This document shows positions 1-56,808 of a stretch of DNA of 64,000 bases, one piece after another. Source of the DNA: Patiria miniata. Taxonomy: Eukaryota. The notes under the pieces are model-generated. The model saw only the letters and a program-made list of their open reading frames with translations. It did no database searches and was not told the DNA's origin. Numbering within the stretch: position 1 is the stretch's first letter; every line of letters begins with the position of its first letter. Made by a program: the position numbers and the translations under genes. The DNA is taken from contig NW_024037060.1 in NCBI RefSeq assembly GCF_015706575.1, forward strand, positions 2,792,515-2,856,514. The letters are read 5' to 3'.

Positions 1-417
1 ATAGAGGACAATAGGGTCCACAATTCCCGAAGGTCCACAATTTGGCGATCGGTTACAAAACAAATGGGAGGTCTTCCTAAAAAGTTAGTACAAACAAAAG
101 AGGGACAATAGGGGGTCCACGATTGAAAGCGTTTACACACTTGCGAGTGTACGGATACACTGGTACACTGCTTGCAAAAGGTTTGCCAAATATATACTTA
201 TAAGAATCCAAAATACCTGTGTATTTTTTGTCGCCCTTGTTTGTCCAGATACTCATATTCATACCCAACAGCCCTGCCAAAGAACTCAAGAGTCTTGTTT
301 CGAAGTCTCAGTTCATACTGTACCACCTTATATTCCAGAAGACTACCGTATTCGAAAGTACTCGGAAAGAGCTTCGACTAGGTCTTTACAATGCTGGTGC
401 TTGCACTTTTTTGTTCA

Positions 418-920
418 CTGTACAGGGTGAGTCAAAAACCGAAACCCAAATGTCGGGACCATTGTTTTAGTGAAGTTCTGCATGTAGCACTTTCAAAATC
501 TAGGACGTGAAAGCCCAATTCATCAGCTTTCTTTTAGTACGCGAATAATTCAAATCACTTATGTAATTTTTAAGTTTAATTTAAAACACAACCACCGTTT
601 TAAAGTTCTGTCCACAGATCACAAAAAGGTGTTCTTACAGCAGAACGAAAACAAATCACGTAGGGATGTGTGCGAATTGTTTCGTTTTGCTGAAAGAACG
701 CTCACTTTTTTTGTGATCTGCGTACAGAACTTTAAAACAGTGGTTGTGTTCAAAATTCCTTGAAAAGTACTTGAGTGATTTGAATGATTCTTGTACTAAA
801 AGAAAGCTTATGAATTGGGCTTTCATATCCTAGATTTTGAAAGTGCTACATGCAGAACTTCACTAAAACAATAGAGTCCAGACATTTGGTTTCGTGTTTT
901 TTTTTACTCACCCTGTACAG
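418..920. repeat. Foldback (near-perfect palindrome) of about 500 bp. The arms of about 250 bp lie at 418-650 and 690-920, are about 88% identical, and are centred near 669.
   Basis: The reverse complement of 690-920 aligns base-for-base with 418-650. The outermost 15 nt (CTGTACAGGGTGAGT) are identical. Those 15 nt also form the 3' end and the GT donor of the CUB exon. Confidence 0.85.
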
Positions 921-1311
921 GAGAAGAAACAAACTTTACCGTTGAAAGCATCCACTTGGAAGACCTTAAAGTGGAAGCCCCTGGCCACGTTGGACGTTCC
1001 AGTCACCAACTGCAACCAGGCCTGGTCGGATTCAATGGTGATATTTAACAGCCACCGGCCATAGCGAACTTCGTTCCGGTAGTAGTAGGACGCCACATCC
1101 AAATCAACCTCGCCCCCAGGCCCCATGAAGACACTGTCATCGTTAATGGACAGGTCCTCCAGGGCGAATATGATGTACTGGCCCGGGGAGGCGGTGAAGA
1201 CCCAGCGGCAGTCGAAGGCACTCGGGTAGCTCATCGGGTAGCTGGGGGAGTACAGATCGTAGACCGTGCCGTTCGATAGGTCCAACTCCGTCGGCCAACG
1301 GATGTCGCACC
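912..1311 (-). CDS. Exon encoding a CUB domain (GCDIRWPTELDLSNGTVYDLYSPSYP...FHFKVFQVDAFNGKVCFFSCTG) of the minus-strand mosaic gene. Phase 1 in, phase 2 out. The donor is GTGAGT at 911-906.
   Basis: The minus-strand translation matches the CUB consensus (C..., SPxYP, C.W, paired Cys). The AG acceptor is at 1313-1312 and the GTGAGT donor follows the exon. The frame is continuous with the upstream FZ exon. Confidence 0.8.
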
Positions 1312-5053: not shown

Positions 5054-5677
5054 TCGTCACCGACACCACGAACTGACACCCAGTGGTCAGCGTTGCAGAA
5101 ATACAAATCGGAGAAAAACGCTTTTAAAGGTTTGACAAGAATTTACTCAGTAAAATAATCCATCCATCTTAGAGGTTTTAGTATCACTTAACTTGAAAAT
5201 GCTTTAACAACTCAATTATAAACGTTAAATTGTGAAAATATGCTCAGTTAATTAGCAATTAAATGATTAAGATGGGTGTCAGTTCGTGAAAATTGACGTA
5301 ATTTGGGAGAGTGCGCGCACACACTGCGCATGCGTGCGCGCACTCTCCAAAAGCACGTCAATTTTCGTTTTCACGAACTGACACTCTCTAACGCTATTGC
5401 ATGCGCGCACTCTCCGAAAACACGCAAATTTTGGTTTTCACGAACTGACACCCTGTGCAGAGTCACTTCGTGGTAACAAAAACACAAGAATTGACCAATT
5501 TCTTGAAAATTCATTATTAAAATTTGCTTACTTTAGATGATTTTAGCAATTTTAACTTCGTCATGTTAAACTTCATGATACAAACTGCTAATATCGGCCA
5601 AAAAAGAAAATTTGAATTTTTAAATTTTTTGGTACACATGTGATGCAGAGGGTGTCAGTTCGTGGTGTCGGTGACGA
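5054..5677. mobile_element. MITE-like element of about 620 bp with 26-bp perfect terminal inverted repeats (CGTCACCGACACCACGAACTGACACC). It carries internal palindromic sub-repeats and lies in an intron of the mosaic gene.
   Basis: The TIRs lie at 5056-5081 and 5650-5675 and are exact reverse complements. Internal copies of GTGTCAGTTCGTG occur at about 5277, 5380 and 5440. ATTT on both flanks is a possible target-site duplication. Confidence 0.7.
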
Positions 5678-18112: not shown

Positions 18113-19265
18113 CACAACCCGTCAGTTCCTAAGCTCGATGTAATTCGTCTCACGCCACAAATCCGATATTCCCTTTGTAGTTCCACAAAAAACTGTAAAA
18201 GGTCCTCCTAGAAAAGATCCCAAGTGTCCATCTTGGGTCCCCATTTCAAAAATCCCAGCTACGACACTGCCCTACGATAGCAATGGGTCATATGGGCCTA
18301 TAAGGTCATGTTCAAGTGGTACGATTCTCTATAGTACACGAAAACCGTTGACATGGGACGCAGTATATGCAACATGGCGAACGGACAGGGTGAATATTGG
18401 CGGTCCAGCATACAAGCCCAGTTAGTTTATGGGGAAATTGTTTGACAATAAAACCCATTCCCTAGCCTAATACGTCTTTGTGCTTCACAGTGAGGATTAT
18501 TGTGCAAGTGGATTGCGTTAGTGAAAAAAACTACCGCCGGCAACAGGAAAAGCTTTTTGGACTTGGGTCAAATTTCTCTTGCTTTTCAGGCAACTTGCTT
18601 TTTTGACAGCAACGGGAAAGCACATGAGGGAAATGGTACAAGAATGAATGTAATCTTGAACAAGTGATCCAGATGTCCACGCCAGTGCCACGCATTTATA
18701 GTAATCATGATGCCAACTTCGTAATTTATAACCCCTAATTTTTGTTATTATTTCCCATAACCAAATTTCAATTCGTATGTTTTGCTTTAGCTAAAAAATT
18801 CCTTTGTTCCGATTTGGGGCGTCTGCAACCCTCTCAAAAGGGGTTTTTTCAGTTTGTGCACCAATAAGCCGCCTTGCAAGAGCCGATGCAGCCAATAATT
18901 TGAATTTTGTGAGGAAATAATTTAATAACTAAACGTCGGTGGAGTTTTTTCGTTCAATGTCTCATTCAGAAATGAATATCCTTTATATAGCCAGAAAAAT
19001 AGCAATGGAAAGAAAAAAATGTTTTTGAGGTGAAACTCGCAAAAATCAAGAGTCATCTTTAAAAAAAAATCCAAAAAAATATAAACAATATAAAAATAAA
19101 CAAACACATTTCCAAGCGTAAATATCTGTGAAAATTACGCTCCTGCCTATTATGGCTATTTCGTTTATGGATATTGCAAACCGTGCATTAGCATAACAAT
19201 GAGAATGTCGAACTGCCTACAAATGGCAATACAAGGATTACAAAGTAGAAGTAAATGAAACTTAA

Positions 19266-19637
19266 GGCCAAAAAAAAGAGTCTCCGGTTTCTGGTATGCG
19301 CGCGCGTCGCCGTAGCCATGCGCGTCGGCAAAATGAAAAAAAGGTTTTTTTTCAATGACAGATGATGTCTCAAAACCGCCAAACTCACTGGTTTGACTGG
19401 AATCCTGCTGCTGCACAATTTGAACGTGTTTTTAGATGGGGTTGTGATCGAGAATAAGCTTTATGTGGCCTCTCTGGACTCCCATATATTTGCACTAAAT
19501 TTAGTCGGGCACCATTTGCAGTCATCAGCCGACATTTGAAGCAAAAAAGTCCGGTAAAAAAAAAAAAAAAAGCCGCGTCGCCGCACCACTTTTTGGACAA
19601 GCTCCATACCAGAAACCGGAGACTTTTTTTTTTGGCC
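19266..19637. mobile_element. MITE of about 370 bp with 33-bp TIRs (GGCCAAAAAAAAGAGTCTCCGGTTTCTGGTATG). It belongs to the same family as the element at 44614-44954.
   Basis: The TIRs lie at 19266-19298 and 19605-19637. The flanks read cTTAA / TAAag. A GCGCGCGCGTCG internal block is shared with the second copy. Confidence 0.75.
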
Positions 19638-22600
19638 TAAAGTGAACTTTCAGGAATTAATACAGAAATTTATTCTATTAGGCCTACACCGCTTTATTGT
19701 ATTGTTAACGCAGTGCTCATTCTCGCGTTCAAATCCGGCTTTTCAAATTTCCACAATGTGATCTGGCCTTACTTTTCAGTTTTGCCCAAAAAAATGTTAC
19801 ATCTGAATACATTTGGCTGATTGTTGGTACCAATCACTTACATTCAGCTTTCCATTCATAAAAAAAATGCTTTCGAAATAAAGTGCATAGGCGGTTTCAT
19901 TTTCAAGTTCCATGTGGTAGTTGGAGCGAGGAAACGTGTCCCACATAGGGTGTCGAAACCGGAATTCCTCGGTTGTTGTACCGGTTTCGATACTCACTCA
20001 CTTGATTCCTAATCAACAATTTGCGATCAACAGACTGAATGCTAAGAACTGATCTTTTAATCTATGATGTGGCTTTTAACATGAACCAAATTTATCACAA
20101 AGTGAAGGTCGGGGGTTTTGGTCCCCGTTTTTTTCTCTTGCACAACGTTCATCAAATAATTATGATGAAATCAGTTGGTCTATTTAAGTCGCTAATGACA
20201 ACTAGAAAGCAGTCAGAGAGCGCAAACCTCCGCCAAGGCTAAACAATTCCCCGCCATATTGTCAGTAGACCCAAAAGAAATACTCGTATAAATGGTGAAG
20301 AATCCTTAAGAAATCCTGGATCCAGACCCAGATCCGGATCACTTCCAAAATCTAATCGATTTGTATAATTGTACCAAGGACCACCCCTAAAAATATTCAT
20401 TCGAATCTGTCCATTACCGTTTGAGTTATCTTGTTAACAGACAAACCAAGTACCAACCAACCAACCGACCAACAAAATCCGATGAAAACATAACCTCCTT
20501 GGCGGAGGTAATTACACTTGATACAATCGATACAGATTAATACATTTTTTGTAATACCGTCGAGAAGATTTAAGAAATATAACAATTCACATTCCAACTT
20601 AACAACTATAGTTGAGGTTGTTCAACCCCACATCCTTAACCTAGAAAACCAGTTTTGGATTCGCCGGTGTCAATCTTTAACGGTCATGAAGTCTTTATCC
20701 CTTTCTGTCTGATTTGCTTCACAAGAGCAAGCCACTTGAAGCACATCAGTCTCAAGGACAATGTACACATACAATTATTTTCACAGGTGTTTATGTGGAG
20801 ACTGGAGCAGCAGTCAATATTTCTAATTGCGGTTAAGTTCCCTGCTCATGGACACGTATAGGGCCTATGTACATTTGAGCTCGAACCACAATTCTCATGC
20901 ATGTTCTATAATGAACAGAACTTACCATAATTGCCCGACACTGCGAAAAGGATAAATCCGTTTGGTTCCAAACTGACTGATGATTAATTGTTCAAAGACA
21001 CACTTCAAGTTGACATGGTATAGTGAGCTCAGCGCAGTGCACTTGCTCTTGGATTGAAGATGTACACGTCAGAAGACCAAATTCAGAGAAGGAATGCCAA
21101 ATACACGAAAATTGAATACAAATTCACATGTATCATGTACAGTTGCGCCACATCCCTCGGGCGTAACCCCACAAAACCACAACCTTGTGGTGTTCAGAAA
21201 TTCATGTTCCGCCGCTGGGATGGAACGTACTTTGTATTTCCCCGAAAAAGGAAAAGAATCATCTCTTTGCGAATGGCTATGTGCTATACGCGCAATTTGT
21301 GGCTATGGCTATAGACTTGGCGTCAATCGACTGACAACCAAAAAGCCAAAATCCGAAGTCATAGACATCCAAATTAACCCACTTCATGAACATTTGTTAT
21401 GACGATATACTACAAACTACAATACATGTACTTCAAATGGGCATTCGTGGCTCCTGACCTCAGTGGCGCACCCGGGGGGGGGGGGGGGGGCCTCGGGGCG
21501 GGCTCGGGCTTGAGCCCCCCCCCCCAAGAGGTTGACTTTTTTTTTTTTTTTTGGTCCTACGATTTGGCCTTGGTGATATGAATGTGGCCTGTTTTCGAGT
21601 AGTATAATAGGGGTGTAAGAGGCGTCACCAAAGTCAAAATAGGCCGCCCCTCAAAAAAAAAAAAATTGTAAAAAAAAAAGTTGGCTGCTGCTTGAGACTG
21701 AACCTTTGTCTGGAATTCAATAACCATATGACATTGCGCCAGTCAAAACTGTTGATGGCTCGATTCGAAACACAATTTTTTTGGTGAGGATAAAATGACT
21801 GTTTGGGGGCACTGTGCGAATTCAGAACCACTAGTGTTTGTTTGCAAGGGTACAAACTTTGTTTAGTTATTTCAAGGGGGAATTGCAGAAATAGTTTCTG
21901 GAATGTTTTCGTTGGAAGCGAACATTTGACAAGACTGCATGTACAACAACAACCCAATGCATTTGTGCCTTGATGACAACTCCAGGTCTGTGCGAGTAGT
22001 CTTGCCCGGGAATGGCAAAAGTGTAACGACCTCAACTCTGTCAACGAGGTGAATTGAACTAACTCAGTCTCTGGTTCATGGGGGGAAAACCTCGCTTTAA
22101 ACAAGTGGAATTTCTGACTGTAAATTGTCGTGACGATTGGTCATGAATTGTCACGGCAAACTGCAATATTTATGAAAGTATGTTGATTGTGTCTTGTTTT
22201 GAGTAACCGACATTTGTAAGGATCATCTAGTCTTGTGCTTGATTAAGGGTCCAGAAGTGCCTGGAAGCTAGTACTTCAATTTTCAGCCTCACTCGATATA
22301 GGACTACATCTTATAGTCTTCGTATTAAAAAAAAATGTCATGGTGATTCGGTGGTTCTATAGTTCGGTTATACCAAAGTCACGAAAAGAAACCTTTCAGT
22401 CTCCTGAAGACGGCCAGAAGAGGCTGCCCAAATCGTTGGTAAGAACACTCCCCTGTCTTATCATATCTTCCACGAGCAATGAGCCCGTTACTTGCGACGC
22501 TGGCTACTATCTCGGTCGACCATAGCCCCCAGTTTTATGAATTTTGCATTGAACTGTATTGGTGGAAGCCTAGCGATCGCTGAAAAAATATTATTAACAT

Positions 22601-42430: not shown

Positions 42431-42840
42431 GTAAGCAACTGATTTTTTTTTATGTAGTATTATGTTACACTAAATGAGGAGAATTACTGAAAAATAAATC
42501 TTGCAGATGAAATGGTTGGATTGCAAACATATTTTTGGACGGTTTCTGGCTTGTCGTGCATTTGACATTCTCCCGGCCAGCTACTGCCAAAATCAGTTGA
42601 ATTCCAACAACTTGGATTGATGGTACAAAAGAGATCCAGTTTTTAAATTAATTGTTGCAAATTTTTTTTCAAAATTTTATTTGCTTTGTAAAATTTGTGA
42701 AAAAAAACTCTTTGCGTCTGTGATGGTTCAGTTATTCACTCACTGCAAAGCAAAGGCACTTTGTGAGATTCAATTCAGATAGACCACAAAAGGAACACTG
42801 ACTGTGTGCATTATAATTTTGAAAGTTGAACAAAGAAATT

Positions 42841-42917
42841 GACTGGAGTGGGGTTTGAACCTGTGACCTCTGGATTGCCGTTTCGTTGCTCTACCAACTG
42901 AGCTATCCAGCCCTAAT
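42841..42917 (-). repeat. A tRNA-derived element. On the minus strand it reads GGGCTGGATAGCTCAGTTGGTAGAGCA…GGTTCAAACCCC. It is probably a SINE head or a pseudo-tRNA rather than a functional tRNA.
   Basis: A and B box-like D-arm (TAGCTCAGTTGGTAGAGC) and T-arm (GGTTCAAAC) are present. The anticodon and T stems do not pair, and the acceptor 3' strand is mismatched. Confidence 0.45.
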
Positions 42918-43039
42918 TTTGGCAGTTCTGCAATTTGTTAGTGTCTTTGTTCGCAGGGCGCTAGTTGGAGGCCATAAGCCCATCATGACTTTAGGCGTGA
43001 TCCCTGGCTACGTGGCATACGGGCTTATGGCTTCTGACT

Positions 43040-43125
43040 AGCACCCCTTGAATTACCCTCAGTTGGTAGAACACAGGAACAGCAATCTGGCGGTTGCAGG
43101 TTTAAGGCCCTCTCAAGTCAATCTC
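43040..43125 (+). repeat. A second, more degraded tRNA-like copy (…CCTCAGTTGGTAGAAC…CAGCAATCTGGCGGTTGCAGGTTTAAGGCCC). It is inverted relative to 42841-42917 and lies next to a 21-bp hairpin at 42961-43050.
   Basis: The sequence is similar to the first copy. It lies just upstream of the TMX TM exon. Confidence 0.35.
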
Positions 43126-43170
43126 TGATAGTTTGTTTGATAGTTCAGCTTTCATTTTCTTTTTTTCTAG

Positions 43171-49089: not shown

Positions 49090-49431
49090 GTACTGAGCAT
49101 GACTTTTTGTGTGTGAACAAAAGAGGGGGCGTTGTTTAGCCTGAACACGTGGCGTGTATTCTTCGCTGGTTTTGTTCGCTTTTGACCATTTCGTGTAGGC
49201 TAAGTAAAAATTCGAAGGTCACTAAAATAATTTGGGAACTCACATTTTCCGGCACTTAGCCGGTTTTGTGCATACGGAATTGTTTCGGTGATACATATTC
49301 TACACTACAACGTTTCGAACATTTTTTTTTATTAGAGACATTCGCACGTCGGCATTAGTGCGCAAACATTAAGTTGGGTCACGAATCATACAGTCGACCA
49401 GTGGTGCTCGAACTTGCTTCTTGCTTGACAG

Positions 49432-49686
49432 GTGACGGTGAGGGCGTGCGTGTTTACGTGATTGACACGGGAGTTCGCCACACCCACGAGGAGTTCGAGG
49501 GCCGAGCCCACCTCGGGTACGACGTGTTCGATGACGGCTGGGGCGGCGGCGACTGCGGCGGGCACGGCACACACTGCGCCGGTACCATCGGTGGCAAGAC
49601 GTACGGTGTGGCCAAGAAGGTTACCATCTGGGCTGTCCGGGTACTGGACTGCTCCGGGTCGGGGACTTGGTCCGGTGTCCAAGAAG
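49432..49686 (+). CDS. Subtilase exon 4: [55 protein letters not shown]…[16 protein letters not shown]. It contains the catalytic Asp (DTG) and His (HGTHCAG).
   Basis: The exon is GC3-rich, about 68% GC. It ends at a second GC donor GAAG|GCAAGT. Alignment to proteinase K (GSGQYSTIIAGMDFV versus [15 protein letters not shown]) requires this donor. Confidence 0.85.
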
Positions 49687-50037
49687 GCAAGTTGGTTTCA
49701 GACAAGTATTTGAAAACGTCCTTTCTACCGATTATTCTACAGGGAGGCTCCTGAACTATAGAGTGTGTCAGCTCATGCCAAAAATGCATACCCCCGATCC
49801 AAGGCTCAGTCTGTGCGATCCTGTGACCTAGAAGTTGATGTACCAATTAGCTAAGACCAAACCTGGCCAGCTATGAGCAGGTCATTCAACCATCCACATC
49901 CTGATTACTGAATGTTTTTCTTCTATGCATGTTCGTGCGATCAGACCATGCACAGGCCATATGCTTAAGCAAGTAGACCCATCGCCTGGCTATTGTATTA
50001 CCAAATTTGATTGTGAATTCTTGATCTTGAACTCCAG

Positions 50038-53575: not shown

Positions 53576-54801
53576 TTAATTTTTAGTTTTAATGTTCTGA
53601 TAATGTTTCTCGTTAGGGGTGGCATTTCCTTCTTTTTGTCCAACGTTCTCGTTCGCCACGACATCAGTATACTCACCTCCTTTGGTTCCCAAGATCGTCT
53701 GGTAGACGGCCTCGCCTGTTGTGTCTTTCGTTGTTGGTGTCAGATCAGTGTAGTCGGCTTCCGAGTGCAGCTCGGTGTCTTTGGCTGTCGGGTCGGTTGT
53801 CTTGGAGCTCCTGCGCCGCCGCAGTCTGGTGATCAGGAAGACAATGACAAGGAGTGAGACGATGAGGATGAGGAGCACCACACTGACGACGATCCACGCC
53901 ACGGGAGGTGCACCGGTACCAGGACCGTCGGTCATCAGCAGGGGGAGTTGCCGGCCGGTTGTCGGTTGTGGGGGAGGTTGGCGTGGGGTTGTCACAACAG
54001 CGGGTTGTGGAATGGTTGCCGGTCGTGTTTCCTCAGTAGTAAAGGGAAGCTTGATTGATGCCCCCACGGTCGTCGTACTCAGCACACGCAGCGGGCCGAT
54101 CGTGCAGGAACTCTCCCGACCAGGAAAGGATGACGCCGAAGTCACCTTGCACACGAAAGTGGCGTCCTGGTGGTCGGCAGTCACAGACAGCTCTGACGAG
54201 ATCACACGTTCATTCTCATCTCCCGAGTGTCTCCACTGCACATTGACGGTTGATGTGATGACGTCTACCCGCACTAGCGGAGAACCGGGGTCTGTAGTGC
54301 AATTCATCGGGAGAGTTGTCCCTTGCTGAACGGTGTAGCTTCCATCAGGGGCACAGATCGGGTAGGGATCGGCCGGAAAGTAGCGCACTGTCAGATAAGG
54401 AACGCCCCGCCCCGTCACTCGACTGCGATTCTGCCAGATTTCACAGTTAAACAATCGGTCATCTCTAGTGACGTTTGTGATGATGAGGACACCGACTGCC
54501 AAATCGGATGGGTAATACTCAAGATAGTTTCATATCGTGGGTTTAGACTGACGCCGTTCATCGTTAGAGGTTGCCAGTTGAATCCCCCTTCGTTTCTGTG
54601 CCAATTAATAGTGTAATCATAACCGGCCATAAGTCCGGATGCGTTGCATGCGAGGATAACCGTGTCTCCCTCGGTCGGCTGTGCGTCGGCCGGTCGATCC
54701 ACCGCAGTGGATAACACCACTTGTGAACCAACTTTGTGGGAACACCAACATGCGCATAGCAGCAGCAGGAACGTTGACTTGGATGTCAATCTGTGATCCA
54801 T
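53576..54801 (-). CDS. Intronless Ig-superfamily type I membrane receptor-like gene. It encodes a signal peptide (MDHRLTSKSTFLLLLCACWCSHKVGS), a V-set Ig domain, a C2/I-set Ig domain, a Pro/Thr-rich stalk, a TM helix (VAWIVVSVVLLILIVSLLVIVFLI) and a cytoplasmic tail with four Tyr motifs (DYTDL, VYQTIL, EYTDV, HYQNI). The reading frame is broken by an apparent 1-nt deletion near 54525-54535 inside the V domain, which makes this either a pseudogene or an assembly error.
   Basis: The ATG at 54801-54799 sits in a gaaaATGG context. Frame A (MDHR…NPRYE) and frame B (YLEYYPSDLAVGVLIITNVTRDDRLFNCEIW… to a stop at 53576) together give a canonical V domain (C…W…D..LFNC). Frame A alone terminates at about 54415. 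Frame B has no usable start. No spliced solution exists because the two frames abut. Confidence 0.6.
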
Positions 54802-54886
54802 TTTCGATCGTTCCCCTGTCAAAATTTGTCCCAAACGAGCTAGCTGTCCAGATAATGTTTGCAGAGAATGTGAGGAGTCGAACTTG

Positions 54887-54904
54887 CTTATACATGTAAA
54901 TATA
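54887..54904 (-). promoter_or_regulatory. Candidate TATA elements for the Ig-like gene. On the minus strand they read TGTATAAG and TATATTTA, about 90-105 nt upstream of the ATG.
   Basis: This is only an AT-rich TATA-like motif in a plausible position. There is no other support. Confidence 0.2.
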
Positions 54905-56808
54905 CTCACACCGTGAAGCTTGCAATTAAATTTTGGTAAGGAATGTGTATTATTATTGGAATAATAGGAATAATGCCTCGATCGGATCTATATTGAACTT
55001 TCATTTTTGGTGTTCATGCAGATACCTTTTTTTTTTTTTTATCGTGCGCCACACTCGGGTGGTTTTGTGTAGAACAACGGCGCAATTTCCGTCATTCTGA
55101 TATTCTACGGAGGGAAATGCTGATTGCTTTTGGGGGAAGAATTTGGGGGAATTGACGAGAATTACCAAAGCCCTTTAACAGAGCCGCATGAAAGGCATGG
55201 TTCCCGGAATGCGGAACCGGCGTATGCCGAGGGCCTCAGTGCTGTATTTTGTTGAGAGGAATTGAAAAAAAAGATCATCAATTCATACAATGGCTTAGCA
55301 CTGAAAGCCTCGGTTTCAGTGTAATTTGGGATTTGTCTATTCTAGAGTTCGGTTTAGGTTTTGAAGTTTCCTTACATTTTGGGCCCGTGAGCAGTACCAC
55401 CTAATTTTCTCTATCTATCTTGTTCAAAAACGGACCGTCTCGTGTGCCATTTATTGCGTTTTGATGTTCAAATTTCCATCTTCACAATACAAGTCAATTT
55501 TCAACCATAAACAAAACCATCAAATTTTACCAAAGTAGACGCCTCCGAAACAAGGCGAGGACGCGTCGAAGGCAACGGTGACTTTGTTTGCTTATTAGTT
55601 TGACAGATGACCTGAGTAGTACTGCTGACGGACGTGGTGAAACTAGTGCTCTCTTGTCCTTTTGTGTTTTTCCTGGGAAACTGAACAGGATACACAAAAT
55701 CATTGTACTTTTAGTCCATTGTGATCTTACTTGCACGCCAATATATAGCGATGTTTTCTGAAAACTGGCGTCAGCTCGATCACCACTAACAATGCAAGTT
55801 GTTCAATGGCGCCACTGGGGAAATATGGAAATTATTGTGTGTGGTATGCAGGCTAATAACAGTTACCCATCCTTGGTCTATGCATTTCTCCATGAGATGA
55901 AAAGCAGCGCGCAGGAACTATCGATCATCAAGTTTTTCAAAACACCGTGTTGCGCAAAAGGAGGAACTGTCGGATCATTGATACATGTTTGTAGGCCTAC
56001 ACATTTAAAAGTGTAGGCCTACTTTGCTATATCCTGACAGGGCACTATGTCCAATGTGTTTTTTTTTAGACAAGAATTACCCCCAAACGTATATAAAATA
56101 ATTATTTTGTTTTGCATTTGGTTATTTTAACCCATTGACAAGCTACCAGGTAAAGTACATCACACCCCCCCCCTAAGAAAAAGGGGGAGAAGAAGAGGAA
56201 GGAGAAAAAGAAATTAATTTTAAAGTCGAAGCTTGTACACCATGGATGTTTAGACCAATCCTTCAATTCAAGGGCAAAAGCATTGTGCTAGCTATTGTTC
56301 AGATAATCTGTCATGGGCAGTTGCTTTGTACAATAACGAGCACGGTTTCTCCATTGAAGGGGGCCTCCGTCTAGAACAAGCTCCTTCTTTGTTTTGCTCG
56401 TTAATGTACAATTGTTAAAGGAAAAAGGGCGCTGAAAGGTGTTCAGAAAATGTCAACAGGGAGGCCGAAAATGAAGCTCACTTTTAATATCACTTGACCA
56501 AACAAGTAGACAATGCCAAAGTTAATTTAAAAAAAGTTATCATCGCATGATCCTTTTACTAAACCGCCGACAGAGGGCGTGTTTTATCTAGGCCGTATTC
56601 ACTCATGTTGTTTATACTCATTGTACTTATAGAGCTCTGTGTGGTAAATCCCTTCCTCTTATTTATTTTATTTTATAAGGTGCACTGAATGAGCTTTTGA
56701 GTCATGTAATTTTCATGAATGTTTGGCATGTTTCGGTTTATTTGATGACAGTTTGAAGGCCCTGACTTCGTCATATTTAACGGGGTAGACGGTGTAAGAT
56801 TGTAGACT

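What the first reader, a model, noticed from the sequence alone, without database searches (positions are those of the whole stretch)
418..1311. A 500-bp foldback whose terminal 15 nt coincide with the CUB-exon 3' end and its GT donor
The last 9 nt of the minus-strand CUB exon plus the donor (CUGUACAGG|GUGAGU) are the outer end of a near-perfect palindrome of about 250 bp per arm at 418-920. In the pre-mRNA the 5' splice site would sit in the base of a very long stem, paired with intronic sequence about 490 nt downstream. The foldback looks like a mobile element. Two readings are possible. Either it inserted precisely at, and now provides, the donor, which would be exonisation or donor capture by a foldback element, or the stem regulates use of the donor. 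The supplied plus-strand ORF 219-470 is just the mirror image of the exon end.
Basis: seen in the sequence. Interest (0 to 1): 0.6.

Follow-up and report, generated by a model that had tools for sequence, protein, structure and literature searches.

The report
Intronic foldback transposon beside a splice donor
The 500-bp palindrome is real, but it is an ordinary small non-coding DNA transposon sitting just inside an intron of a sea-star corin-like protease gene; the exon ends 28 bases before it, at a splice donor shared with two other sea stars.

Summary
The foldback at 418-920 is confirmed. It has two arms of about 240 nt that are 89% identical, and the RNA fold is -315 kcal/mol (z = -30). 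It reads best as a 493-bp non-autonomous Tc1/mariner-type element (423-915) flanked by a duplicated TA. Its termini, TA|CAGGGTGAGT...ACTCACCCTG|TA, recur on unrelated TA-flanked inverted-repeat elements in metagenome contigs.

The claimed coincidence with the exon end is not supported. The window is Patiria miniata. The gene is XP_038058130.1 (corin-like: TM-HYR-LDLa x3-Fz-CUB-...-trypsin). That model ends the CUB exon at 940 (AACG|GTAAAG, phase 1, 372 nt) and continues with an LDLa exon outside the window. The orthologous exons of Acanthaster planci and Asterias amurensis end at the same codon position. Their introns are 472 and 654 nt and contain no foldback. The 28-nt "extension" has intron-like composition.

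The GTGAGT at 911-906 is therefore transposon sequence: a decoy donor 28 nt inside the intron, predicted to be almost fully base-paired (0.98). Donor capture or exonisation is rejected. I could not measure copy number in the genome. This is an ordinary finding of low interest.

The parts
418..920 (.). Full extent of the palindrome. It comprises the element, the TA duplications and a fortuitously complementary CTG/CAG from the target site.
423..915 (.). Foldback MITE proper, 493 bp. Termini are CAGGGTGAGTCAAAAA... and ...TTTTTTACTCACCCTG. The arms are about 423-660 and 678-915 around a short central loop near 669. There are no tandem sub-repeats and no ORF longer than 56 aa.
421..422 (.). Left copy of the inferred TA target-site duplication.
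   Evidence: in the comparable elements the inverted repeat likewise stops at TA
916..917 (.). Right copy of the inferred TA target-site duplication. On the minus strand these are intron nucleotides +23 and +24.
906..911 (-). GTGAGT inside the right terminal repeat: a decoy 5' splice-site consensus (ACAGG|GTGAGT), 28 nt downstream of the real donor, phase 2. An in-frame TGA at 910-908 overlaps it. Predicted pairing probability is 0.98.
934..942 (-). Authentic 5' splice site ACG|GTAAAG. The last exon base is 940 and the intron starts at 939. It is phase 1 and its predicted pairing probability is 0.24.
940..1311 (-). CUB-domain exon of the corin-like gene (aa 393-516 of XP_038058130.1). It is 372 nt, phase 1-1, with acceptor AG at 1313-1312 and GC3 of 0.80.
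912..939 (-). This is the first stretch of the intron: U-rich, GC 0.39, GC3 3/9.
1..417 (-). Continuation of the same intron. The next exon (LDLa, ETCGDDEFLC...) is not in the window.

Best explanation
A 493-bp non-autonomous foldback DNA transposon (a MITE with Tc1/mariner-type ends and a TA target-site duplication) inserted into a TA 22 nt downstream of the 5' splice site of the CUB exon of the Patiria miniata corin-like protease gene. The insertion happened after this lineage split from Acanthaster and Asterias. The gene still uses its ancestral donor AACG|GTAAAG at 940|939. It is a decoy donor whose use would add 28 nt and shift the frame. In the pre-mRNA the two arms should pair into a stem of about 240 bp. 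That stem buries the decoy donor against its own complement in the other terminal repeat and leaves the real donor free. Shown here: the anatomy, the exon end, the orthologous exon ends, absence from the orthologous introns, and the fold prediction. Inferred: the transposition mechanism (cut-and-paste by a Tc1/mariner-type transposase acting on the terminal repeats), non-use of the decoy in vivo, and neutrality of the insertion.
For: Anatomy. A palindrome runs the whole length of the element and ends at TA|CAG...CTG|TA. It has no coding capacity and no tandem sub-repeats.

Exon end. XP_038058130.1 (P. miniata) maps at 100% to 1311-940 and continues with an LDLa exon that is absent from the window. 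All mapped module exons (HYR, LDLa, Fz, CUB) are phase 1-1. The exon is 372 nt, a multiple of three. Its GC3 is 0.80, against 3/9 in the 28-nt extension (P = 0.003).

Orthologues. A. planci has GATGCTTTCAACG|GTAAGT (L006 27752|27753, intron 472 nt). A. amurensis has GAAAACG|GTGAGA (L007 33913|33914, intron 654 nt). Neither 42-48 kb locus gives a BLAST hit to the element or contains its terminal motif.

Mobility of this type of end. A metagenome scan for TACAGGGTGAGT N{458,488} ACTCACCCTGTA found four contigs. Each holds a genuine inverted-repeat element: the repeats extend 23-90 nt beyond what the pattern required, and the flanks outside the TA are unrelated. One family (L002) carries what reads like the C-terminal remnant of a Tc1/mariner-type transposase. 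That identification rests on my own pattern recognition plus a non-significant match to the C-terminus of the Sleeping Beauty catalytic domain (E = 1.4); Pfam found nothing. The peptide has 564 protein relatives. A second copy of this family sits at a different site, again flanked by TA (L005). The L001 left end shares 11 of the 15 terminal nucleotides beyond those the pattern required (P about 0.0007).

Folding. MFE is -314.8 kcal/mol, z = -30. Pairing probability is 0.98 for the decoy and 0.24 for the real donor.
Against: I found no second copy of this element. There is none in the 64-kb window, none for the 26-nt core in metagenome contigs, and the P. miniata genome could not be searched. 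Multicopy status, which defines a MITE family, is therefore untested. The TSD length is ambiguous because CTGTACAG is itself palindromic: TA, GTAC, TGTACA and CTGTACAG all fit. The link to Tc1/mariner rests on terminal motifs that my own search pattern required. The exon end comes from a RefSeq gene prediction plus conservation, not from junction reads that I could inspect. The decoy is intrinsically a better match to U1 than the real donor, so minor use cannot be excluded.
Confidence: 0.85

Rival explanations
1. One reading: the CUB exon ends at 912 and the foldback supplies its GT donor (donor capture or exonisation).
For: The frame stays open to 910-908. ACAGG|GTGAGT matches the 5' splice-site consensus better than ACG|GTAAAG (sequence).
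Against: The RefSeq protein leaves the genomic frame after N516, so the exon ends at 940. The same phase-1 exon end is found in two other sea stars that lack the element. An end at 912 would give phase 2 and a 400-nt exon in a gene built of phase 1-1 modules. The extension has intron-like composition. The site is 98% paired.
Confidence: 0.03
2. The decoy GTGAGT is used as a minor, regulated alternative donor. This would add 28 nt, shift the frame and trigger nonsense-mediated decay, with formation of the stem deciding between the two donors.
For: A strong consensus lies 28 nt from a weaker authentic donor. The stem base forms only after about 490 nt more have been transcribed, which leaves a kinetic window (inference). 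One search found no gene on record with exactly this product; per the tool description this can happen when a gene has several products, so other isoforms may exist.
Against: I could find no transcript or protein evidence. The predicted pairing is 0.98. The protein's 90% cluster contains a single member.
Confidence: 0.08
3. The element belongs to a superfamily that makes longer target duplications (8-bp CTGTACAG, hAT- or Merlin-like) rather than to Tc1/mariner.
For: CTGTACAG is a perfect 8-bp direct repeat at 418-425 and 913-920 (family D3). From my own knowledge, it fits the hAT target pattern nTnnnnAn.
Against: The termini would then start GGTGAGTC rather than with the hAT-type YARNG. In every comparable element found, the inverted repeat ends at TA|CAGGGTG and the flanks beyond the TA are unrelated. 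An 8-bp TSD would have to be palindromic by chance (1/256, against 1/64 for CTG/CAG flanking an obligatory TA).
Confidence: 0.08
4. The palindrome is a local inverted duplication or a selected structural RNA such as a miRNA or siRNA precursor, and not a transposon.
For: Only a single copy is seen. The hairpin is very stable. There are weak matches to long-hairpin plant miRNA models.
Against: The Rfam scores (51 bits) are far below the gathering thresholds (195-200), so they reflect generic hairpin similarity. The ends are TA-bounded and transposon-like, and are shared with mobile elements elsewhere. The element is absent from the orthologous introns.
Confidence: 0.05

Closest known systems
Tc1/mariner-derived hairpin MITEs, e.g. 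human Made1 (Hsmar1-derived, source of the mir-548 family; PMC1784062) and plant Stowaway
   Same: TA target duplication, CAG/AGGT-type termini, short and non-coding, palindromic over the whole length so that a transcript folds into one long hairpin, often intronic.
   Different: It is much longer (493 bp against 80 bp for Made1). No autonomous partner or other copies have been identified. There is no evidence of small-RNA production.
Introner elements (MITE-like transposons that create introns; PMC12130899, PMC11282704)
   Same: A DNA transposon with inverted repeats and a TSD whose terminus carries a consensus GT donor, found in a marine organism.
   Different: Here the element lies inside a pre-existing, conserved intron. 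The real donor is upstream and ancestral. Splicing the element out on its own would run into stop codons within 10-13 codons (sequence). No family of such introns is shown.
Drosophila FB and sea-urchin TU foldback transposons (from my own knowledge)
   Same: Long inverted arms that snap back; TU elements occur in an echinoderm.
   Different: The arms of FB and TU elements are built from tandem sub-repeats and span kilobases. Tandem Repeats Finder found no such structure here.
RNA stems that mask 5' splice sites (e.g. the tau exon 10 stem-loop and SMN2 TSL2; from my own knowledge)
   Same: A donor-like sequence buried in a helix.
   Different: Here the masked site is a decoy brought in by the transposon, and the masking follows automatically from pairing of the terminal repeats. 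It is not a demonstrated regulatory device.

Membership tests
MITE (non-autonomous TIR DNA transposon) | Terminal inverted repeats | tested here: met
   The termini are 95% complementary over 21 nt, and the inverted repeat continues through the whole element.
MITE (non-autonomous TIR DNA transposon) | Target-site duplication flanking the repeats | tested here: met
   TA at 421-422 and 916-917. The length is ambiguous (2-8 bp) because the site CTGTACAG is palindromic.
MITE (non-autonomous TIR DNA transposon) | Small size and no coding capacity | tested here: met
   493 bp. The longest internal ORF is 56 aa and has no Pfam match.
MITE (non-autonomous TIR DNA transposon) | Many dispersed copies in the genome | not testable with these tools
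   One copy in the 64-kb window, none in two orthologous loci, and 0 hits for the core in metagenome contigs. The P. miniata genome was not available.
Tc1/mariner superfamily derivative | TA target duplication and CAG-type termini matching a Tc1/mariner transposon | tested here: inconclusive
   TA|CAGGGTGAGT ends are shared with TA-flanked elements L001-L005. One of these families carries a likely transposase C-terminal remnant. However, the shared decamer was required by the search pattern, and no cognate transposase from P. miniata was identified.
Introner | The element constitutes the intron and supplies or co-opts its splice sites | tested here: not met
   The donor at 940|939 lies outside the element and is conserved in species that lack it. 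The reading frame does not resume after the element.
FB/TU-type foldback transposon | Arms composed of tandem sub-repeats | tested here: not met
   Tandem Repeats Finder reports only a trivial 9-nt x 2.1 repeat.
Known miRNA or structured-RNA family (Rfam) | Score at or above the family's gathering threshold | tested here: not met
   The best hits are 51.3 bits (threshold 195) and 50.6 bits (threshold 200). The gathering-threshold scan found nothing here.
hAT superfamily | 8-bp TSD plus YARNG termini | tested here: inconclusive
   An 8-bp direct repeat CTGTACAG exists, but the termini would then begin GGTGAG. If the termini begin CAGGG, the 8-bp flanks (TCACTGTA and TACAGGAG) do not match.

The most novel reading that the evidence does not exclude
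The transposon-borne consensus donor, 28 nt from a weaker authentic donor, is used conditionally. Use of it would be unproductive: a frameshift and a premature stop. The 240-bp stem would act as the switch, or the intronic double-stranded RNA would be processed into small RNAs or edited, giving the corin-like gene a transposon-derived regulatory module. More broadly, the CAGGGTGAGT terminus that recurs in unrelated TA-flanked elements might be tolerated or favoured because pairing of the terminal repeats masks its splice-donor activity.
Probability: 0.07. Interest if true: 0.4.

Novelty: new member of a known kind. Interest (0 to 1): 0.12.

Why it matters
It matters mainly as a correction. A strong GTGAGT next to an open reading frame is not necessarily the donor, and here it belongs to a transposon end. 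For annotation of P. miniata, the finding marks a decoy donor 28 nt from a real one in a corin-like protease gene, plus a likely source of long intronic double-stranded RNA. It also illustrates a general point: donor-like sequences in terminal inverted repeats are masked automatically by pairing with the other repeat. Nothing here changes what is known about transposons or splicing.

Tried and rejected
1. The first protein search with Fz+CUB found nothing, although a 100%-identical RefSeq protein exists. The exhaustive HMMER search was needed to find it.
2. Exact look-ups of the read-through ORF and of XP_038058130.1 itself found no contig, so the sequence left of the window and the next exon could not be fetched.
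4. A literature search for the terminal-repeat string found nothing, and there was no paper on P. miniata MITEs.
5. A metagenome scan for the conserved 26-nt core gave 0 hits.
6. Rfam gave only sub-threshold generic long-hairpin hits.
7. Pfam did not recognise the L002 transposase remnant. The match to Sleeping Beauty in the PDB was in the right place (C-terminus of the catalytic domain) but not significant (E = 1.4).
8. Introner reading. Splicing 912|911 to the CAG at 418 gives ...CTG-EQKSASTSIVKT*. Splicing 940|939 to 418 gives ...AFN-VNKKVQAPAL*. Neither resumes an ORF (sequence), so this reading was rejected.
9. Assembly artefact: rejected because the arms differ by 11% and by indels.
10. 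Two further TACAGGGTG ends in the window (11303 +, 53444 -) have no inverted partner within 8 kb. They may be chance matches or relics.

Full report
**Observation.** The sequence contains a long inverted repeat spanning 418-920. Aligning the left arm with the reverse complement of the right arm gives 89% column identity with four small indels. BLAST of the element against its own reverse complement gives 82% over 512-518 columns, with gaps and centre included. As minus-strand RNA (960-380) it folds into a single hairpin of -314.8 kcal/mol, against -124.5 +/- 6.3 for dinucleotide shuffles, z = -30. It is by far the largest inverted repeat in the 64-kb window. Both ends read CTGTACAGGGTGAGT. The palindrome and its coordinates are therefore real. 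The arms are about 11% diverged, not "near-perfect", and that divergence excludes an assembly snap-back artefact.

**Anatomy of the element.** The ends are ...tcaCTG TA CAGGGTGAGTCAAAAA...TTTTTTACTCACCCTG TA CAGgag.... The simplest reading is a 493-bp element (423-915) with CAGGGTGAGT termini and a duplicated TA (421-422 and 916-917). The three further complementary bases on each side (CTG and CAG) would come from a palindromic target site, CTG-TA-CAG. Because CTGTACAG is its own reverse complement, target duplications of 2, 4, 6 or 8 bp cannot be separated from this one copy. The element has no ORF above 56 aa, and none of its ORFs matches Pfam. Its arms are not built of tandem sub-repeats. 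It matches no Rfam family: the best scores are 51 bits against thresholds of 195-200, which is generic long-hairpin similarity.

**Gene and organism.** On the minus strand, 1311-908 is an open frame with a CUB domain (Pfam 1.7e-8), preceded by an Fz-domain exon (5e-16). An exhaustive HMMER search with the CUB frame returned a 1293-aa protein at 99% identity. It is XP_038058130.1, [quoted passage not shown]. Its exons map to the window's minus strand:
- TM exon, 9846-9646 (97% identity)
- HYR exon, 7898-7647 (100%)
- three LDLa exons, at 5871-5734, 4695-4579 and 2805-2686. The 87% and 97.5% figures for the first and third come from tblastn running past the exon boundaries.
- Fz exon, 2156 to about 1811
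- CUB exon, 1311-940, aa 393-516 (100%)

**Where the exon ends.** After ...FHFKVFQVDAFN(516) the protein continues E-TCGDDEFLCDVGGC..., an LDLa module that is not in the window. The genomic read-through would give GKVCFFSCTG*. The model's donor is therefore AACG|GTAAAG, with 940 the last exon base, in phase 1. Several independent observations agree:
- Every module exon of this gene visible in the window is phase 1-1 (sequence, mapped). The exon 1311-940 is 372 nt, a multiple of three. An end at 912 would give 400 nt and phase 2.
- GC3 is 0.80 over the 123 exon codons but 3/9 in the 28-nt extension (binomial P = 0.003). GC falls from 0.57 to 0.39.
- The orthologues from Acanthaster planci (77% identity) and Asterias amurensis (62%) were fetched with their loci. 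The A. planci exon ends GATGCTTTCAACG|GTAAGT, identical to P. miniata up to the donor, and resumes 472 nt later with AG|AGACCTGTGCC (E-T-C). The A. amurensis exon ends GAAAACG|GTGAGA and resumes 654 nt later.

The donor at 940|939 is thus ancestral to these sea stars. Neither orthologous locus (42 and 48 kb) contains the element or its terminal motif.

**Consequence for the finding.** The foldback starts at intron position +25, with its TA at +23 and +24. The GTGAGT at 911-906 is part of the element's terminal repeat and is not the gene's donor. The element did not "provide the donor". It arrived next to an existing one, in an intron that is now longer than 939 nt, compared with 472 and 654 nt in the relatives. 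The other half, uniqueness of the arm in the genome, could not be tested.

**Is it mobile, and of what kind?** I found no second copy. There is none in the window, and a metagenome scan for a 26-nt core that is identical in both arms gave nothing.

A scan for the paired ends, TACAGGGTGAGT N{458,488} ACTCACCCTGTA, did find four metagenome contigs. All four hold genuine inverted-repeat elements. Their repeats extend 23-90 nt, well beyond the required 10 nt, and they are flanked by TA with otherwise unrelated flanks. They are not homologous to the P. miniata element internally. The exception is the L001/L003 left ends, which share 10-11 of the next 15 terminal nucleotides (P about 0.0007-0.004).

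One family (L002) contains what reads like the C-terminal end of a Tc1/mariner-type transposase. That identification is my own pattern recognition. Pfam is silent, and the match to the C-terminus of the Sleeping Beauty catalytic domain is correctly placed but not significant (E = 1.4). The peptide has 564 relatives in the protein collection, some carrying the DUF4817 domain. A second copy of this family lies at another site, again bounded by TA (L005 3809-4340). Elements ending TA|CAGGGTGAGT therefore do transpose with a TA duplication.

This favours the TA (Tc1/mariner-like) reading over an 8-bp (hAT-like) one. The caveat is that the decamer was imposed by my search pattern.

**How it most likely works.** As DNA, it is a non-autonomous cut-and-paste element that a Tc1/mariner-type transposase recognising the terminal repeats would mobilise (inferred). 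As RNA, it forms a stem of about 240 bp within the intron.

In a partition-function fold of 1100-300, the decoy AGG|GUGAGU is paired with probability 0.98. The real donor ACG|GUAAAG is paired at 0.24, compared with 0.33 in a reconstructed empty-site transcript. The decoy is intrinsically the better match to U1. Its use would add 28 nt, shift the frame, and leave a TGA at 910-908. A donor-like sequence in a terminal inverted repeat necessarily has its complement in the other repeat, so the element masks its own decoy. This masking is predicted, not shown. Minor or conditional use of the decoy, and editing or dicing of the stem, remain possible.

**Comparison with known systems.** The element works like hairpin MITEs of the Tc1/mariner group, such as human Made1, the source of mir-548 (PMC1784062). 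It is not an introner in the sense of PMC12130899 or PMC11282704. It is not the intron, the real donor is outside it and older than it, and no reading frame resumes after it. It is also not an FB/TU-type foldback element. Membership of a MITE family is met for inverted repeats, target duplication, size and lack of coding capacity, and is untested for copy number.

**Verdict.** The interpretation that the palindrome end is the exon end and donor is wrong. What remains is an ordinary intronic insertion of a previously undescribed but conventional kind of element. Interest is low.

Noticed in passing
window 6-25, 31-42, 103-124: A short motif, GGACAATAGGG(G)GTCCACRATT, occurs twice about 97 nt apart, and its GGTCCACAATT half occurs a third time. 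These could be sub-terminal repeats of another element that runs off the left edge of the window, inside the same intron.
   Followed up: partly
window 42834-43126: An inverted pair of 69-nt arms (77% complementary). The left arm gives a marginal Rfam tRNA hit (42840-42912, minus strand, 30 bits against a threshold of 29), which ARAGORN does not call. It looks like two head-to-head tRNA-derived SINE copies.
   Followed up: no
window 19260-19643: A MITE-like element: 39-nt terminal inverted repeats, 95% complementary, 306 nt apart.
   Followed up: no
window 11303 (+) and 53444 (-): Two solitary ends reading TA|CAGGGTG. One continues GGTGCAAAAAG, which resembles a mariner terminal repeat. Neither has an inverted partner within 8 kb. 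They may be relics of related elements or chance matches (about 0.5 expected per orientation).
   Followed up: partly
window 5288-5432: A tight 36-nt hairpin (89% complementary, 7-nt loop), with a third related copy at 5402-5432. It lies in the intron between two LDLa exons of the corin-like gene.
   Followed up: no
L001 512-1010 and L003 265-755: The same TA|CAGGGTGAGT element sits at the same position in two metagenome contigs that are 81% identical over their whole overlap. This is either an old insertion shared by two related organisms or part of a larger repeat.
   Followed up: partly
window 49374-49754 (+) and 53576-54909 (-): Other genes in the window: a subtilase/proteinase-K-like exon (DTG...GHGTHCAG motif), and two adjacent ORFs encoding a signal peptide, Ig-like regions and a transmembrane segment. 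I did not analyse them.
   Followed up: no
window 1811|1810 (minus strand): Mapping the RefSeq protein implies that the Fz exon uses a weak-looking phase-1 donor, GAGG|GTATAG, while stronger-looking GT sites nearby (CAG|GTCACC) are out of phase. This is another case in this gene where the best consensus match is not the donor used.
   Followed up: partly
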